Of a stretch of 33,785 nucleotides of DNA, positions 12,682 through 28,348 are shown piece by piece. The position numbers were made by a program, and so were the translations under genes. The notes beneath the pieces are model-generated. The model had not been told where the DNA came from. It searched no databases and was given only the letters and a program-made list of their open reading frames with translations. Each line of letters starts with the position of its first letter. Position 1 is the stretch's first letter. The DNA comes from Candidatus Parcubacteria bacterium (GTDB lineage: Bacteria; Patescibacteriota; Patescibacteriia; UBA1558; GWA2-36-10): assembly GCA_003599205.1 (NCBI GenBank), contig QZJA01000006.1, forward strand, positions 1-33,785, given 5' to 3'.

Positions 12682-12808
12682 AATTGTATAATTAAATAAT
12701 TTTTAAACATTAACATCCTTAGCGCTCATCTTAATAAAGTTAGAACTTTAGGGATTCCGAGCTTTAACTTTTATTAATTTGAGCACTAGTATGAAGGGAG
12801 GTGAAACA

Positions 12809-13234
12809 ATGAGACAAAAAGGATTTACTTTAGTTGAGTTGTTAGTCGTTATCGCTATTATTGGTATTTTATCAACAGTAGCAATCGTCAATTTAAACAG
12901 TGCTCGTGACAAGGCCAAATTTGCGTCAGCTCAATCTGCTATGTCACAAATGGCCACTCCAATGATTCTGTGTATGGATGAAGAAGTGGGTGGTGGTACG
13001 GTTACTTGGCTCGCTAATGGTCCTGTAGCAAACCAAGAACCATGTGATGCGACTGCCGTTGATGGGTCTGAATTTCCAGATCTAGGAACCGGTTGGTCTT
13101 ATAGTGCCACTGGAGCGTATTGGGGGCATGACTATGATACTTATGAATGGCATTTCTGTGCTGTAAGTACTAGTGGAGACGATATTGATTGTACCCAAGA
13201 TGGTTGTTCAGCAACATCAACTTGTCCAGTATAG
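12809..13234 (+). CDS. Major type IV pilin (type IVa-like short leader)
   Basis: MRQKG/FTLVELLVVIAIIGIL class III signal with Glu+5. A strong SD, AAGGGAGGTG, lies 6 nt upstream of ATG 12809. The listed TTG 12779 start would translate through this SD. It has its own promoter and terminator and six Cys in the globular domain. Confidence 0.88.
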   Translation: MRQKGFTLVELLVVIAIIGILSTVAIVNLNSARDKAKFASAQSAMSQMATPMILCMDEEVGGGTVTWLANGPVANQEPCDATAVDGSEFPDLGTGWSYSATGAYWGHDYDTYEWHFCAVSTSGDDIDCTQDGCSATSTCPV

Positions 13235-23380: not shown

Positions 23381-23729
23381 GGGGTGGTAGTTCCCCGCTA
23401 GGCGGGGCCCCGCCATAGGCGGTGGCAGCCCTAGTTATTTATTGGCCATTGATTTCATTTTGAAGTTTGATGAAATCTTATGAGAACGCCTGCCTGTCAT
23501 CCCACTACGCGCTGCGCGCTTCGCGGGACACAGCGCAGGAATTATTGTATGTCTGCCTGTGCTGGGGTGGTAGTTCAGCTGGTTAGAACGCCTGCCTGTC
23601 ACGCAGGAGGTCGAGGGTTCGAGTCCCTTCCATCCCGCCACAGGCAGACATAAATTAGAGGGTTCGCTTGTCCGCCAAAGTCCTGAGTTTCAGTGAAGGA
23701 CGACGGCGGAAGTCCCTTCCATCCCGCCA
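23381..23729 (+). other. Loop-expanded outer copy of tRNA-Asp: five colinear exact fragments enclosing the intact tRNA
   Basis: Exact matches to the intact tRNA: nt 1-13 at 23381-23393; nt 22-38 at 23483-23499; nt 39-45 at 23534-23540; nt 50-58 at 23658-23666; nt 59-77 at 23711-23729. All four helices are kept and all interruptions fall in loops. Confidence 0.6.
23564..23640 (+). tRNA. tRNA-Asp (anticodon GUC), 77 nt, CCA encoded
   Basis: Acceptor GGGGTGG/CCATCCC, D-stem GTTC/GAAC, anticodon stem CCTGC/GCAGG with loop CTGTCAC, T-arm GAGGG-TTCGAGT-CCCTT, discriminator G and a terminal CCA. Confidence 0.93.
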
Positions 23730-24107: not shown

Positions 24108-24186
24108 ATTTGATAAATTATGATTTTATTATTATAATATAGCTATAATAATTAATTGAATTTTTATGAGAGAAGGAGGCGAGAGA

Positions 24187-24384
24187 ATGCCAAAGACGCC
24201 AGAGCAAGAGGCGATTGATTATATTGGCTCCGTGATTCAGAACTGTTATATGTTGGGGGCTAATGATTTTGAGCTTCCTACTTTGCGTGGGCTCCAAGAT
24301 AAAGTTAGAACAAAGGAAATTAGTCCAGAAGAAGCTAGAAAACTAGCTAGTGAAATAGAAAATCGAAAACAAAGCGATCACTAA
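24187..24384 (+). CDS. Small hypothetical protein (65 aa)
   Basis: GGAGG at 24174-24178 lies 8 nt upstream of ATG 24187. The listed ATG 24166 would translate through this SD. No recognisable motif. Confidence 0.6.
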   Translation: MPKTPEQEAIDYIGSVIQNCYMLGANDFELPTLRGLQDKVRTKEISPEEARKLASEIENRKQSDH

Positions 24385-24400
24385 TTTTTCAGTATTAAAA

Positions 24401-24427
24401 AGACGCCCTCAAGAGGGCGTCTTTTTT
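24401..24427. terminator. Bidirectional terminator between convergent small genes
   Basis: AGACGCCCT (24401-24409) pairs with AGGGCGTCT (24414-24422). It is flanked by AAAA upstream and TTTTTT downstream. Confidence 0.8.
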
Positions 24428-24439
24428 ATTAGTTGACTT

Positions 24440-25199: not shown

Positions 25200-25595
25200 G
25201 TGAAGTACGAGCACAAGGAACAGCTTTTTTTCTTGCTACTGGCAGCTTTATGGGGGTGTTTGATTTTTTATCTTTCTTCAATACCTGATCTGTCCAGTGG
25301 TCTGCCTAGTATGTATGATTTTATTTTGCGGAAAATGGCCCATGTTTCTGTGTTTATGATACTTACTTATTTTCTAGCTGGTTCTCTGTCCAAAAATAGT
25401 CGGCCATATTTGTTTTTTGTTATTATAGTGGCTGTTATTTATGCTTTTATTGATGAATTACATCAGGCTGATGTAATTACTCGCCACGGTTCGCCGGTAG
25501 ATATTGTTATAGATTCAATCGGTGTTTATTTGGGTATAAGAATTTATCAATACAAACCACCGAGCAAGATTTTGAGAAAAAAGTTTTTCAAATAA
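25200..25595 (+). CDS. VanZ-like membrane protein
   Basis: RKMAHVSVFMILTYF, DELHQ and SPVDIVIDSIGVYLG match the VanZ-family pattern. GTG start. Confidence 0.7.
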   Translation: MKYEHKEQLFFLLLAALWGCLIFYLSSIPDLSSGLPSMYDFILRKMAHVSVFMILTYFLAGSLSKNSRPYLFFVIIVAVIYAFIDELHQADVITRHGSPVDIVIDSIGVYLGIRIYQYKPPSKILRKKFFK

Positions 25596-25661
25596 AAATA
25601 ACCCCCTCTGCTCTTTGAGCATCTCTCCCTTGAATAAGGGGGAGAAAGAGGGGGTTATTTT
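25595..25661. terminator. Compound bidirectional terminator: 15-bp perfect inverted repeat enclosing a 10-bp hairpin
   Basis: AAAATAACCCCCTCT (25595-25609) pairs with AGAGGGGGTTATTTT (25647-25661). The inner stem is 25622-25631 with 25636-25645, loop GAAT. It sits between the convergent VanZ-like gene and rplT. Confidence 0.7.
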
Positions 25662-26008
25662 TATTTTTTAAAGTTTTCTACTAATTTTTTGAAGGCTTTA
25701 GGGTTTTCTTCAGCTAGTTGTGCTAAAACTTTACGATCCAATTCGCATTGATTTTTTTTCATGGCATCAATAAAGGCTGAATATTTCCAATCTAATTGTT
25801 TTAGTGCAGCACTTAGCTTTGTCTGCCATAATCTGCGATTGACTCTTTTTTTCTTTCGTCTATCGCTTAGAGCATGTTGACCAGCGTGAAGAACAGCTTC
25901 TTGAGCTTGTTTAATCTTAGTTTTTCGTCCCCATTTATAACCTTTGGTTTTTTTGAGGATATTTTTTCGGCGTTTTACATGACTTACACCACGTTTTACT
26001 CTAGGCAT
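25661..26008 (-). CDS. rplT: Ribosomal protein L20
   Basis: MPRVKRGVSHVKRRKNILKKTKGY... Confidence 0.96.
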   Translation of the reverse strand: MPRVKRGVSHVKRRKNILKKTKGYKWGRKTKIKQAQEAVLHAGQHALSDRRKKKRVNRRLWQTKLSAALKQLDWKYSAFIDAMKKNQCELDRKVLAQLAEENPKAFKKLVENFKK

Positions 26009-26851: not shown

Positions 26852-27228
26852 TGGTGGAGATGAGGGGTATTACACCCCTGTCTGACAAATTGCCTAATAC
26901 AGCTCTACAAGTTTAGTCAATTTTGTGTTTCAGCCGAAGACTATAAAATTAACAAAAAATCATCGGCCAAGTTGGTGATGGTTTTGAAATATCCAGCCCA
27001 ACAATGGATATTTCTAGCCTAGTGAATGACGTCTCAAATTGATCCTAGGCTATCAAAGGGAGACGGTCGTAGCATTTTTAAGCTACAACTGGGTAAAGCT
27101 GCGGGACCTTGAAAAGATCCTTGGCTTTAGCAATGAAGTTTTTTGCACTTATTGCAGGAGATGTTTAATGAGATCACTCTCAACTTGCAATATATTATTT
27201 CACTTGCCGTCGAATAAGTTACATCCCC
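26852..27228 (-). ncRNA. ssrA: tmRNA (ssrA), ~377 nt
   Basis: The minus strand starts GGGGATGTAACTTATTCGACGG and ends AGGGGTGTAATACCCCTCATCTCCACCA. The acceptor GGGGATG/CATCTCC includes a G3-U pair. The tag ORF GCA AAA AAC ... GTA GCT TAA is preceded by AAUAAGU. It starts 5 nt downstream of the smpB stop. Confidence 0.88.
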
Positions 27229-27232
27229 AAGT

Positions 27233-27685
27233 TTAAAAATTCTTGAGTTTGCGCGAAATATTGCGCTCAATGTCTCTTTTTTTGATGGTTTCTCTTTTGT
27301 CAAATTTCTTTTTACCCTTAACCAAGGCAATCTTTACCTTGATCAACCTTCGCGTAGTATACACTGAAATAGGTACAATTGTCAAGCCTTTTTCGTTGGT
27401 TTTGCTGGATAAATAGGCGATTTGACGCTTAGCCAGCAAAAGTTTGCGATCACGATCAGGATTATAATTTTTCAAACTTTGTAGGGAAGCTTTAGAATAG
27501 GTCGGGATGTGCATTTTTTTGAGCCAAGCTTCACCTCTTTTTAGTGAAACAAAAGCTCCCTTAAGGCTGATATGGTGGGTTTTGATTGACTTTACTTCTT
27601 GGCCAGTCAATACCAAGCCAGCCTCGAGTTCTTCGACAACTTTATAGTCAAGATTAATTTGTTTGTTTCGTGCAATTTCCGCCAT
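27233..27685 (-). CDS. smpB: SsrA-binding protein SmpB
   Basis: NKQINLDYKVVEELEAGLVLTGQEVKSIK... plus a basic C-terminal tail. Confidence 0.95.
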   Translation of the reverse strand: MAEIARNKQINLDYKVVEELEAGLVLTGQEVKSIKTHHISLKGAFVSLKRGEAWLKKMHIPTYSKASLQSLKNYNPDRDRKLLLAKRQIAYLSSKTNEKGLTIVPISVYTTRRLIKVKIALVKGKKKFDKRETIKKRDIERNISRKLKNF

Positions 27686-27703
27686 ATTTTTAATCTATAG
27701 CTA

Positions 27704-27732
27704 AATATAGACCATTTTTAGGTATTTGACAA
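27704..27732 (-). promoter_or_regulatory. Candidate smpB promoter TTGTCA, 17 nt, TATATT (minus strand)
   Basis: The reverse complement of 27727-27732 is TTGTCA and that of 27704-27709 is TATATT. The start codon is at 27685. Confidence 0.45.
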
Positions 27733-27754
27733 TAAGGGCCTTTTTTGTTAAAGT
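27726..27754 (+). promoter_or_regulatory. Candidate promoter TTGACA, 17 nt, TAAAGT for the downstream structured RNA
   Basis: TTGACA at 27726-27731 overlaps the minus-strand -35 box. TAAAGT at 27749-27754. Confidence 0.45.
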
Positions 27755-27757
27755 AGC

Positions 27758-27923
27758 GGGTTCCCCTAGAACAAACTGGTAATTTCCAAGCTATTTTGTC
27801 AGATGTTAGCCCAATAACCCTCCTTATCGGTGCTACTCACCCTGGCAGATAGCTTGGAGGTTATTAGATAGCCCTGAGCTCCTCTGCGCTACGCGCGTAG
27901 TTGAGGTGTCTAGGGGTTTTTTT
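27758..27923 (+). ncRNA. Unclassified structured RNA candidate (~165 nt)
   Basis: End-to-end stem CCCCTAGA (27763-27770) with TCTAGGGG (27909-27916), followed by T7. A 19-bp helix pairs 27776-27794 with 27849-27867, and 27797-27802 pairs with 27842-27847. Five G-U pairs are valid only on the plus strand. No ORF is present. Confidence 0.5.
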
Positions 27924-27952
27924 ATTACTTCAAATTAGCTATAATAAGTCTG

Positions 27953-28348
27953 ATGTATAAAATAAAACAAAACAAAGAATCACAAATTAGCGTTAAGCGT
28001 TCCAAATTTCTTGGTTTTTGTTTTAAAGTAGAATCAATCAACCAGGTAAAAGATATTTTACAAAGTTTCGAGGGTAAATACAAAGGCGCCAAGCACACGG
28101 TCTATGCTTATCGTTTAGCAGAAGATGGAGTACTCAGGGAAAAGTTTGATAACGACGGCGAACCAACAGGTTCAGCCGGTCCGCCACTTTTATCACTGTT
28201 GCAGAAAAAAAATATCATGAGTTGTCTTTTGGTAGTAGTCAGATATTATGGAGGTATAAATTTGGGAGTAGGAGGTTTAATTAGAGCTTATACTCAAGCA
28301 GCTCAGGAAACATTGGAAGAAAATTTTGATGAAAATCAGGGAAAATAA
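27953..28348 (+). CDS. IMPACT/YigZ-family protein (N-terminal UPF0029 domain only)
   Basis: KRSKFLGFCF, HTVYAYRL, DDGEPTGSAGPPLL, VVVRYYGGINLGVGGLIRAY. Confidence 0.85.
   Translation: MYKIKQNKESQISVKRSKFLGFCFKVESINQVKDILQSFEGKYKGAKHTVYAYRLAEDGVLREKFDNDGEPTGSAGPPLLSLLQKKNIMSCLLVVVRYYGGINLGVGGLIRAYTQAAQETLEENFDENQGK

What the first reader, a model, noticed from the sequence alone, without database searches (positions are those of the whole stretch)
27758..27923. Unclassified ~165-nt structured RNA exposing a CCUCCUUA (anti-SD-like) segment
The intergenic region between divergent smpB and the YigZ-like gene has its own TTGACA-17-TAAAGT promoter. It folds into:
- a closing stem, 27763-27770 with 27909-27916, followed by U7
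- a 19-bp helix, 27776-27794 with 27849-27867
- a 6-bp continuation, 27797-27802 with 27842-27847
- a 3' hairpin around the palindrome CTACGCGCGTAG (27889-27900)
Five G-U pairs would be C-A mismatches on the other strand, which argues for plus-strand transcription. The apical ~39 nt are C-rich and contain ACCCUCCUUAUC (27817-27828). This includes CCUCCUUA, identical to the 16S rRNA anti-Shine-Dalgarno tail. The RNA might therefore mimic the anti-SD and pair with mRNA ribosome-binding sites. I could not match it to SRP, 6S, RNase P or any riboswitch from memory. It could instead be a 5' leader of the YigZ-like gene if the terminator is leaky.
Basis: partly seen in the sequence, partly recalled or inferred. 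Interest (0 to 1): 0.6.

Follow-up and report, generated by a model that had tools for sequence, protein, structure and literature searches.

The report
Conserved small RNA with anti-Shine-Dalgarno loop
Between smpB and a YigZ-like gene, this ultra-small (Parcubacteria/CPR) bacterium carries a separately promoted small RNA gene, conserved in a narrow group of relatives, whose hairpin loop always shows the ribosome's mRNA-docking sequence (CCUCCUU); it probably silences the very few genes here that still use a classical ribosome-binding site, but no transcript or target has been shown.

Summary
Window 27760-27923 (+) folds far better than shuffles (z -4.9) and matches no Rfam 15 family.

The element belongs to a small family. 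I found nine distinct sequences in Komeilibacteria-like Parcubacteria, all divergent from smpB-ssrA. Each has a TTGACA-type promoter and a T-run or terminator.

**What is conserved:**
- The core is one long hairpin, 27776-27867.
- Its 26-bp lower helix has nine pairs with compensatory changes. It is 95% paired, against 31-48% in slid controls.
- CCUCCUU is invariant and lies unpaired in the apical loop in all nine.

**What is not conserved:**

**Context:**
- Of 40 genes in the window, 36 have no Shine-Dalgarno (SD) sequence.
- Only a type IV pilin gene and a 65-aa small ORF have a strong one. These two are the top predicted partners of the loop.

**Most likely function (about 50%):** a trans-acting anti-SD-mimic sRNA that blocks SD-led mRNAs.

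**Against or missing:**
- No transcript evidence. Metatranscriptomes show this organism's tmRNA but not this RNA.
- Several close relatives have lost it.
- Pairing is only 7 nt.

Verdict: a new member of a known kind, in an unusual setting.

The parts
27726..27754 (+). Promoter of the sRNA: -35 TTGACA (27726-27731), 17-nt spacer, -10 TAAAGT (27749-27754) preceded by TG. The -35 overlaps the TTGTCA -35 of the divergent smpB promoter.
   Evidence: 10 of 12 matches. It is identical in L001 and L002. TTGACA- or TTTACA-type promoters lie at the same distance in L004, L009, L013 and L016.
27760..27923 (+). Predicted primary transcript in this genome, about 164 nt. The start is inferred from the -10 box and the end from the U7 tract.
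   Evidence: Inferred. There is no RNA-seq support.
27771..27872 (+). Conserved family core, matching the covariance model: one long imperfect hairpin.
   Evidence: The match to R2 scores 98 bits on the sense strand and 26 bits on the opposite strand. It is the only copy in the window.
27776..27802 (+). 5' arm of the lower helix. 27776-27796 pairs with 27847-27867, and 27798-27802 pairs with 27842-27846.
   Evidence: The helix has 26 pairs and 94.9% of cells are paired. Nine pairs show changes on both sides. No shuffle of 500 reaches the observed value.
27842..27867 (+). 3' arm of the lower helix.
   Evidence: One U-G pair is invariant in all nine sequences (alignment columns 14 and 141), which argues for an RNA-level constraint on this strand.
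27807..27835 (+). Apical hairpin that presents the loop. The stem is 27807-27817 with 27824-27835, with bulges.
   Evidence: Compensatory A-U to G-C and U-A to C-G changes separate the window from L001 and L002.
27819..27825 (+). Invariant CCUCCUU (anti-SD-like) motif. The six-base loop CCCUCC is 27818-27823.
   Evidence: The motif is identical in all nine family members, while the flanking apical sequence varies. Its CCUCC core has unpaired probability ~1 in every member (0.77 at one base in L016); the trailing UU is paired in the window, L001 and L002.
27868..27923 (+). Window-specific 3' extension. It holds a GC-rich hairpin around CTACGCGCGTAG, then TCTAGGGG (27909-27916), which pairs with CCCCTAGA (27763-27770), then U7. 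It probably acts as the terminator here.
   Evidence: It is absent from L001 and L002, where the T-run follows the hairpin directly. The simple terminator scan did not call it.
27940..27955 (+). Separate -10 box TATAAT (27940-27945) lying 7 nt before the ATG (27953) of the UPF0029/YigZ-like gene. This implies a leaderless or near-leaderless mRNA that is independent of the sRNA.
   Evidence: GCTATAAT is conserved in relatives both with and without the sRNA.
24173..24384 (+). Candidate target 1: the SD AAGGAGG (24173-24179) and a 65-aa small ORF (ATG at 24187). The unit has its own promoter and terminator.
   Evidence: It gives the best predicted duplex with the sRNA loop, -12.6 kcal/mol. No Pfam family matches.
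12795..13234 (+). Candidate target 2: a type IV pilin gene (ATG at 12809) preceded by AAGGGAGGTG.
   Evidence: The N_methyl motif matches at E 8e-10. It gives the second-best predicted duplex, -11.7 kcal/mol.

Best explanation
This is the gene for a trans-acting small regulatory RNA, about 100 nt in most relatives and about 164 nt here. It is transcribed from its own sigma-70-type promoter, divergently from smpB-ssrA.

The RNA is essentially one long hairpin. A conserved 26-bp lower helix acts as a stable scaffold, and in most relatives also as the intrinsic terminator. It holds up a short apical hairpin whose loop displays CCUCCUU, the same letters as the anti-Shine-Dalgarno (anti-SD) tail of 16S rRNA.

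The loop would pair with AAGGAGG-type SD sequences of mRNAs, about 7 bp in a loop-to-linear contact. That would compete with the 30S subunit and lower translation, and perhaps the stability, of those mRNAs.

Almost all genes of this organism start without any SD, and many look leaderless. The RNA would therefore act only on the small class of SD-led genes. In this window these are the type IV pilin gene and a 65-aa small ORF.

**Shown here:** the promoter and terminator signals, conservation, covariation, the strand, loop exposure, the scarcity of SDs, and the ranking of predicted partners.

**Inferred:** that the RNA is made, that it pairs with SDs, and that pairing represses.
For: 1. **Stable fold.** z is -4.9 on the plus strand.
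2. **A family of nine distinct sequences.** I found them with covariance models R1 and R2 next to smpB in related MAGs and metagenome contigs.
3. **Covariation in the lower helix.** It is 94.9% paired, against 31-48% for slid controls. Nine pairs change on both sides, and 0 of 500 shuffles reach the observed value. In addition, 19% of cells are G-U, which fits only this strand.
4. **Invariant exposed motif.** CCUCCUU is invariant while neighbouring apical stems and inserts vary. Its CCUCC core is predicted unpaired in every member; the trailing UU pairs in the three closest.
5. **Independent transcription signals.** Every member has a near-consensus promoter and a T-run or terminator. The downstream genes differ and have their own -10 box.
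6. **SD census of the window.** Of 40 genes, 2 have a strong SD, 2 a weak one and 36 none. L009 shows the same split: 9 housekeeping genes without an SD and 3 membrane-protein genes with a perfect SD.
7. **Predicted partners.** The loop's duplexes with the two SD-led starts are -12.6 and -11.7 kcal/mol. The next best is -8.0 and the median is -4.3.
8. **Neighbouring SD-led gene.** In L013 and L016 an SD-led small ORF lies directly upstream of the sRNA on the same strand.
Against: - **No transcript evidence.** Eight metatranscriptome runs contain tmRNA contigs. In seven they are 99% or more identical to the window, at depth about 4-25, and none of these has a contig for the sRNA 530 nt away. 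The exception, X16, has a low-depth contig of ~94% identity that crosses smpB, the promoter and the RNA. It looks like DNA carry-over or read-through from a related strain. No RNA run is indexed for the sRNA alone. Size selection and assembly could explain this, so it is weak negative evidence.
- **Short, unspecific pairing.** Complementarity to every candidate target is only the 7-nt SD core, with no target-specific extension.
- **SDs fit the ribosome better.** SDs in the clade mostly continue GGAGGTG, which matches the canonical 16S tail better than the sRNA's CCCUCC. The ribosome should therefore out-compete the RNA unless the RNA is abundant.
- **Loss in relatives.** The close relatives L003, L005 and L006 keep both flanking promoters but lack the hairpin, and L012 lacks it where L013 has it. 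The RNA is dispensable, or has moved elsewhere in those genomes.
- **Unexplained conservation.** The strong sequence conservation of the lower helix is not explained by a pure scaffold role.
Confidence: 0.5

Rival explanations
1. Molecular decoy. The loop mimics the 3' tail of 16S rRNA and titrates a protein that normally reads that tail, rather than pairing with mRNA. Candidates are Era's KH domain, a 16S 3'-end processing or modification factor, bS21, bS1 or IF3. The conserved lower helix would be part of the protein-binding surface.
For: - The only invariant single-stranded letters are those of the 16S tail.
- The lower helix is conserved in sequence beyond what pairing needs: 5 of 26 pairs never vary, and one U-G pair is invariant.
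- The gene always sits beside ribosome-related genes: smpB, ssrA, infC, rpmI and rplT.
- From established knowledge, Era binds GAUCACCUCC at the 16S 3' end.
Against: - The letters 5' of CCUCC are not conserved and never read GAUCA, which is part of Era's recognition sequence.
- No candidate partner gene co-varies with the RNA in the loci I hold.
- Loss of the RNA in close relatives argues against a core role in ribosome biogenesis.
Confidence: 0.15
2. A structured RNA with a different function, not yet guessed. Examples are an RNase III substrate whose processed apical hairpin is the active species, or a partner of an unknown RNA-binding protein. The resemblance of CCUCCUU to the anti-SD sequence would be incidental to its true ligand.
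For: - The helix is at least 25 bp and nearly perfect, which is in the size range of RNase III substrates.
- The apex tolerates large inserts: a second hairpin of about 45 nt in L009, L083 and L016.
- No target-specific complementarity was found.
Against: - A 7-nt motif identical to the anti-SD core, kept in nine sequences whose other apical letters drift, is hard to call incidental.
- The genomes contain a small, distinct class of genes with perfect SDs, which is an obvious ligand.
Confidence: 0.15
3. A cis-acting 5' leader or attenuator of the downstream gene (YigZ-like/UPF0029), with a leaky terminator.
For: In the window the element lies only 30 nt upstream of the YigZ-like ATG, on the same strand. 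UPF0029 follows within about 0.3-0.5 kb in L002, L009, L013 and L016.
Against: - The next gene differs between members: UPF0029 in the window, a 299-aa sugar-kinase-like ORF in L004, and a 73-86-aa membrane protein in L009, L013 and L016.
- A T-run follows the hairpin in all members.
- The downstream gene has its own GCTATAAT box 6-7 nt before the ATG. That box is also kept in relatives that have lost the hairpin.
- The downstream gene has no SD for the loop to sequester.
Confidence: 0.04
4. Not an RNA gene at all: a long DNA palindrome, terminator or miniature mobile element that happens to sit after a promoter shared with smpB.
For: - It shows presence or absence as a clean ~110-125-nt indel between close relatives.
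- No transcript has been seen.
- The TTGACA box is also kept where the hairpin is absent, so it may serve smpB.
Against: - It is single-copy in the window with filters off. All nine sequences lie at the same locus, and the metagenome scan added nothing elsewhere. That is unlike a mobile element.
- 19% of helix cells are G-U pairs, including one invariant U-G. These would be A-C mismatches in a DNA cruciform or on the other strand.
- The invariant loop motif has no role in a plain terminator.
- The -10 box sits at the correct spacing in all members.
Confidence: 0.06

Closest known systems
CcsR / 'cuckoo' sRNAs and the alpha-r14/AbcR-type sRNAs of Alphaproteobacteria. These are hairpin loops carrying CCUCCUCCC-type anti-SD motifs. 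This description comes from my own knowledge, not from a test here.
   Same: - Stand-alone sRNA genes.
- The conserved single-stranded letters are an anti-SD-like CCUCC motif presented in a hairpin loop.
- They are thought or shown to pair with ribosome-binding regions of mRNAs.
   Different: - No sequence or structure match: Rfam 15 scans give nothing at the sRNA.
- This RNA has one motif on top of a single 26-bp helix rather than tandem hairpins.
- The host is a CPR bacterium in which most genes have no SD at all.
- Hfq dependence is unknown here.
RsaE/RoxS (Rfam RF01820) and other C-rich-loop sRNAs of Firmicutes, such as the UCCC-motif Rsa RNAs.
   Same: The proposed mechanism is the same: an unpaired C-rich loop pairs with the G-rich SD of a set of mRNAs and blocks initiation. 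These are also independent promoter-to-terminator units of about 100 nt.
   Different: - Not a member: no covariance-model match.
- The seed here is the full anti-SD heptamer CCUCCUU rather than UCCC/CCCC.
- It occurs once, not two or three times.
- Firmicute targets sit among genes that nearly all use an SD, whereas here SD-led genes are the rare exception.
The 3' tail of 16S rRNA (anti-Shine-Dalgarno sequence ...CACCUCCUUA).
   Same: It shares the identical heptamer CCUCCUU. L016 shares nine letters, ACCUCCUUU.
   Different: - In the sRNA the motif sits in a closed hairpin loop, not on a free 3' end.
- In eight of nine members the base before CCUCC is C, not A.
- SDs in the clade extend as GGAGGTG, which matches the rRNA tail rather than the sRNA.
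Other unannotated anti-SD-loop sRNAs reported by this scan in CPR genomes (notes e1-1578727, e1-809348, e1-2232428, e1-4613196). These are unchecked AI notes.
   Same: - Promoter-to-terminator units of about 100-160 nt in Patescibacteria.
- An invariant CCUCC(U) loop.
- Host genomes whose genes mostly lack SDs.
- One is also reported upstream of smpB.
   Different: Homology to this family is not shown. Look-ups by sequence found no look-alike outside this genome. The resemblance may be convergent.

Membership tests
Any Rfam 15 family, including Bacteria_small_SRP RF00169, 6S RF00013, RNase P, RsaE/RoxS RF01820, the CcsR families, riboswitches and drum RF02958 | A match to the family covariance model at or near its gathering score | tested here: not met
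   The gathering scan of the window finds only tmRNA and tRNA. The E-value scan of 27650-28000 gives nothing credible: its best hit is drum at 19.1 bits against a cut-off of 43, and that hit covers the terminator and next promoter rather than the hairpin. The E-value scan of seven homologous loci gives no hit at the sRNA.
Trans-acting base-pairing sRNA with an anti-SD / C-rich seed loop (a functional class) | A conserved C-rich or anti-SD motif kept single-stranded in a hairpin loop | tested here: met
   CCUCCUU is invariant in nine of nine sequences. Its CCUCC core has unpaired probability ~1 (0.77 at one base in L016); the trailing UU is paired in the window, L001 and L002.
Trans-acting base-pairing sRNA with an anti-SD / C-rich seed loop (a functional class) | An independent transcription unit: its own promoter and terminator, not tied to one downstream gene | tested here: met
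   Promoter and T-run signals are present in all members. The downstream genes differ and carry their own -10 box. This rests on sequence signals only.
Trans-acting base-pairing sRNA with an anti-SD / C-rich seed loop (a functional class) | A discrete stable transcript is detected | tested here: inconclusive
   Seven metatranscriptome runs hold this organism's tmRNA and no sRNA contig; X16 holds only a low-depth ~94% contig crossing smpB, promoter and RNA. No RNA run is indexed for the sRNA. Assembled contigs of size-selected libraries cannot prove absence.
Trans-acting base-pairing sRNA with an anti-SD / C-rich seed loop (a functional class) | Pairing with the SD or start region of target mRNAs that changes their translation | not testable with these tools
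   Only predictions are available. The two SD-led starts in the window rank first at -12.6 and -11.7 kcal/mol, against a median of -4.3.
Cis-regulatory 5' leader or attenuator | A constant association with, and co-transcription into, one downstream gene family | tested here: not met
   The downstream gene is UPF0029, a kinase-like ORF or a small membrane protein, depending on the member. A separate conserved -10 box precedes the downstream ATG.
Miniature mobile element or repeat | Multiple dispersed copies | tested here: not met
   There is one copy in the 33.8-kb window with filters off. All nine distinct sequences lie next to smpB; the metagenome scan's six true hits were that same locus (four duplicates, two new variants).

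The most novel reading that the evidence does not exclude
In this CPR lineage the cell's own genes start without an SD, and many are leaderless. A small set of genes for surface, membrane and small proteins (type IV pilin, DUF2784 membrane proteins, variable small ORFs next to smpB) keep perfect SDs.

The anti-SD-loop RNA could be a class-wide switch. As a trans copy of the ribosome's docking sequence, it would turn the whole SD-led channel down or up at once, independently of each gene's identity. It may be co-ordinated with ribosome rescue through the back-to-back promoter it shares with smpB-ssrA.

Notes from this scan report similar anti-SD-loop RNAs in several other CPR groups, one of them also beside smpB. 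If these are related, or repeatedly re-invented, this would be a general regulatory principle of SD-poor ultra-small bacteria that is not described in the literature I could search.
Probability: 0.22. Interest if true: 0.8.

Novelty: new member of a known kind. Interest (0 to 1): 0.55.

Why it matters
My literature searches found no described riboregulator in Candidate Phyla Radiation bacteria. These organisms are uncultured, have tiny genomes and have unusual ribosomes. Published work finds the anti-SD motif in only 48% of Parcubacteria 16S genes (PMC9297842).

This RNA is conserved, supported by covariation, and has the anti-SD heptamer as its one invariant exposed element. It sits in a genome where 36 of 40 genes lack an SD, and the exceptions include the pilin gene. 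That gives a concrete, testable handle on two questions: how these cells separate SD-dependent from SD-independent translation, and how they control surface structures (type IV pili) that may matter for a host-associated lifestyle.

If it proves to be an ordinary sRNA with two or three targets, it is still a new RNA family worth adding to Rfam.

Tried and rejected
- **Known RNA families** (SRP, 6S, RNase P, riboswitches, Y RNA and others). Rejected by Rfam scans at gathering and E-value thresholds. The drum hit (19 bits, E 0.22) covers the terminator and next promoter and is not credible.
- **Minus-strand reading** (an AAGGAGGG SD followed by a mini-ORF). Mini-ORFs of 2-5 codons exist in some members but are not conserved. 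G-U pairs, the promoter, the T-runs and the model scores all favour the plus strand.
- **Peptide coding on the plus strand.** The only candidate is a non-conserved 4-codon ATG frame.
- **Extended, target-specific complementarity** to neighbouring SD-led ORFs in the window, L013 and L016. None was found beyond the 7-nt SD core.
- **Homology between the SD-led small ORFs.** L011, L012 and L013 are related (E 2e-28 and 3e-4). The window's 65-aa ORF is not detectably related to them.
- **Wider family.**
  - The covariance-model search of all 80 smpB loci from diverse Parcubacteria found members only among the 16 closest.
  - A scan for CCTCC in non-coding hairpin loops of all loci found no other family.
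  - The L044 hit is an infC-leader hairpin and the L051 hit is an SD/anti-SD palindrome.
- **Metagenome pattern scan.** It gave 8 loci, of which 6 are true. Only 2 of those are new variants.
- **Transcript evidence.** Four run searches and three read-laying runs showed tmRNA only.
- **16S rRNA 3' end.** None is present in the window or in any locus.

Full report
**Setting.** The window is AT-rich (37.6% GC) and comes from an uncultured Parcubacteria/CPR bacterium. The nearest SmpB relatives are MAGs labelled Parcubacteria, Patescibacteria and Komeilibacteria. Around the finding lie:
- tmRNA on the minus strand at 26852-27228 (128 bits)
- smpB on the minus strand at 27233-27685
- the candidate RNA on the plus strand
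- a UPF0029/YigZ-like gene (27953-28348), a YgjP-like metallopeptidase gene and an inositol-monophosphatase-like gene

**Observation.** The promoter TTGACA-17-TAAAGT is called by the consensus scan, with TG before the -10. The plus strand folds at -67 kcal/mol with z -4.9, and none of 200 shuffles folds as well. The minus strand folds less well, at -55.7 kcal/mol with z -3.1. Rfam 15 assigns nothing, either at gathering thresholds over the window or at E up to 10 over 27650-28000.

**Relatives.**
- I fetched 80 smpB loci from GTDB species genomes.
- Sequence search found the element only in the two closest, L001 and L002. Their alignment is informative. The promoter is identical and the long hairpin is conserved with compensatory changes. 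The hairpin is followed directly by a T-run, and then by another promoter.
The conserved entity is the hairpin 27776-27867.
- A covariance model from the three sequences (R1) found L013, L004 and L009. A second model (R2) added L016.
- One degenerate pattern scan of the metagenome collection returned eight loci. Six are true, and two of these (L083, L085) are new variants.
- In all there are nine distinct sequences, all divergent from smpB-ssrA. Rfam finds nothing at the element in the homologous loci either.

**Structure.** On the nine-sequence alignment (A4) the 26-bp lower helix has these properties:
- It is 94.9% paired, against 31-48% when the partners are slid by 1-3 columns.
- Nine pairs have changes on both sides.
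- None of 500 column shuffles reaches the observed paired percentage, double-change counts or covariation score.
- By my count from that table, 44 of 234 cells are G-U pairs, including one U-G kept in all nine. These would be A-C mismatches on the other strand.

Model scores are 98-108 bits on the sense strand and 15-26 on the antisense strand. Together these fix the strand.

The apex varies: a short bulged stem in the window, L001 and L002; a different stem in L004 and L085; and an extra ~45-nt hairpin in L009, L083 and L016. In every member, however, CCUCCUU sits in the terminal loop of the first apical hairpin. Its CCUCC core has predicted unpaired probability ~1 (0.77 at one base in L016); the trailing UU pairs in the window, L001 and L002. 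It is the only invariant stretch of the apex. In the window the loop is CCCUCC, 27818-27823.

**An independent gene, not a leader.**
- All members have a TTGACA- or TTTACA-type -35 and a -10 box at 17-nt spacing, 10-25 nt upstream of the hairpin.
- All have a T-run or a separate terminator hairpin after it.
- The next sense-strand gene differs: UPF0029 in the window, a 299-aa kinase-like ORF in L004, and a small membrane protein in L009, L013 and L016.
- In the window the downstream gene has its own TATAAT (27940-27945) 7 nt before its ATG. That GCTATAAT box is also conserved in relatives lacking the hairpin.

**Distribution.** The RNA is present in lineages whose SmpB is 83% to 60% identical to the window's. 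It is absent from L003, L005 and L006 (73-75% identical), which keep both flanking promoters but miss ~110-125 nt. It is also absent from L012 where L013 has it. It is single-copy in the window even with filters off. It is therefore an old but dispensable, or movable, gene of a narrow clade, and not a repeat.

**Context that bears on function.** I listed the 30 nt before 39 starts and saw no SDs. After correcting two starts I scored 40 genes:

| SD class | Genes |
|---|---|
| None | 36 |
| Weak 4-nt core | 2 |
| Strong | 2 |

The two strong cases are a type IV pilin gene (AAGGGAGGTG, ATG 12809; N_methyl motif) and a 65-aa ORF (AAGGAGG, ATG 24187) that has its own promoter and terminator.

L009 shows the same split. 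Nine housekeeping genes have no SD, and three membrane-protein genes have a perfect SD, two of them DUF2784-like. In L013 and L016 an SD-led small ORF lies directly between smpB and the sRNA. In other relatives a variable SD-led small ORF occupies that position without the sRNA.

Duplex prediction between the window's loop segment and all 41 start regions puts the two SD-led genes first, at -12.6 and -11.7 kcal/mol. The next best is -8.0 and the median is -4.3. Complementarity never extends beyond the SD core.

SDs in the clade usually continue GGAGGTG. That matches the canonical 16S tail (CACCUCC, from established knowledge) rather than the sRNA's CCCUCC. I infer that the ribosomal anti-SD is probably intact here. 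A published survey found the anti-SD motif in only 48% of Parcubacteria 16S genes (PMC9297842), so this needs checking.

**Expression.** Eight metatranscriptome runs hold tmRNA contigs. In seven they are at least 99% identical to the window's, at word depth about 4-25. None of these holds a contig of the sRNA. The exception, X16, has a low-depth contig of ~94% identity that crosses smpB, the promoter and the RNA up to 27853, which looks like DNA carry-over or read-through from a related strain. Searches with the sRNA alone, or with the L009 and L004 versions, found no RNA run that holds them. These are assembled contigs from libraries not designed for small, tightly folded RNAs, so the result is weak negative evidence. 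It does mean that transcription is not demonstrated.

**Interpretation.** The best-supported reading (about 50%) is a trans-acting sRNA. Its scaffold helix presents an anti-SD mimic that pairs with AAGGAGG-type ribosome-binding sites and competes with the 30S subunit. In this SD-poor genome it would act only on the few SD-led genes. The rivals are:
- a 16S-tail decoy for a protein (15%)
- another RNA function, with processing of the long helix (15%)
- a DNA-level or non-functional hairpin (6%)
- a leader of the downstream gene (4%)

**Comparison with known systems.** The mechanism proposed is that of C-rich or anti-SD-loop sRNAs: RsaE/RoxS in Firmicutes, and CcsR/'cuckoo' and alpha-r14/AbcR in Alphaproteobacteria (from my own knowledge). 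Membership in any catalogued family was tested and not met. This is therefore a new family of a known kind.

Notes from earlier agents of this scan describe similar anti-SD-loop RNAs in other CPR genomes, one of them also upstream of smpB. I treat these as leads only. Look-ups by sequence found no look-alike outside this genome, so common descent is not shown.

**Limits.**
- The family has only nine distinct, fairly closely related sequences, so shuffle-based statistics overstate independence. The slid-partner control and the number of pairs with double changes are the sturdier evidence.

Noticed in passing
window, all gene starts (for example 1093, 2356, 13818, 17423, 27685, 27953): Almost no gene has an SD: 36 of 40 have none. 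Several have a TATAAT box only 6-10 nt before the ATG (17423, 27953, 13818), which suggests widespread leaderless or SD-independent initiation.
   Followed up: partly
window 12795-13234 (+): The type IV pilin gene most likely starts at ATG 12809, preceded by the strong SD GGGAGGTG. It probably does not start at the upstream TTG 12779 given by the mechanical ORF list. It is one of only two strongly SD-led genes in the window.
   Followed up: partly
window 24130-24430 (+): This is a self-contained unit with a promoter, the SD AAGGAGG, a 65-aa ORF with no Pfam family, and a strong terminator (AAAAAGACGCCCTCAAGAGGGCGTCTTTTTT).
   Followed up: partly
L008, L010-L013, L016-L018, about 90-320 nt upstream of smpB, divergent strand: A variable small ORF of 67-102 aa with a strong SD sits divergent from smpB in many relatives. 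The L011, L012 and L013 ORFs are homologous, and the others are not detectably so. In L013 and L016 the sRNA follows this ORF.
   Followed up: partly
L009 5160-6202 (+): Three consecutive membrane-protein genes, two of them DUF2784-like, each have a perfect SD. They lie directly after SD-less infC-rpmI-rplT.
   Followed up: partly
L044 2890-2960 (-): In a Paceibacterota MAG, the leader of infC (divergent from smpB) contains a small hairpin whose loop reads GCCUCCUUUUGG. This is an anti-SD-like loop in cis, before the IF3 gene.
   Followed up: no
L051 1550-1580: There is a perfect SD/anti-SD palindrome, CCCCTCCTT-ACA-AAGGAGGGG, in a non-coding stretch.
   Followed up: no
window 27886-27901 and 23504-23519: The GC-rich mini-hairpin sequence in the window-specific 3' extension (GCGCTACGCGCGTAGT) has a 13-of-16 match on the minus strand, inside the tRNA-Asp region that was flagged earlier. 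This may be a small GC-rich hairpin module that gets inserted.
   Followed up: no
window 26852-27228 (-): The tmRNA of this organism, or a >=99% identical one, is assembled in at least seven public metatranscriptome runs from groundwater, river and sediment samples. The organism is therefore active in sampled environments.
   Followed up: partly
window 25579-25677: A long hairpin lies between the ORF ending at 25595 and the end of rplT (25661). It gives weak model hits on both strands (17 and 16 bits) and is probably a bidirectional terminator.
   Followed up: no
window 27704-27754: The sRNA promoter and the smpB promoter are back to back and share the palindromic TTTGACAA/TTGTCAAA -35 region. 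The box is also kept in relatives that lost the sRNA hairpin.
   Followed up: partly
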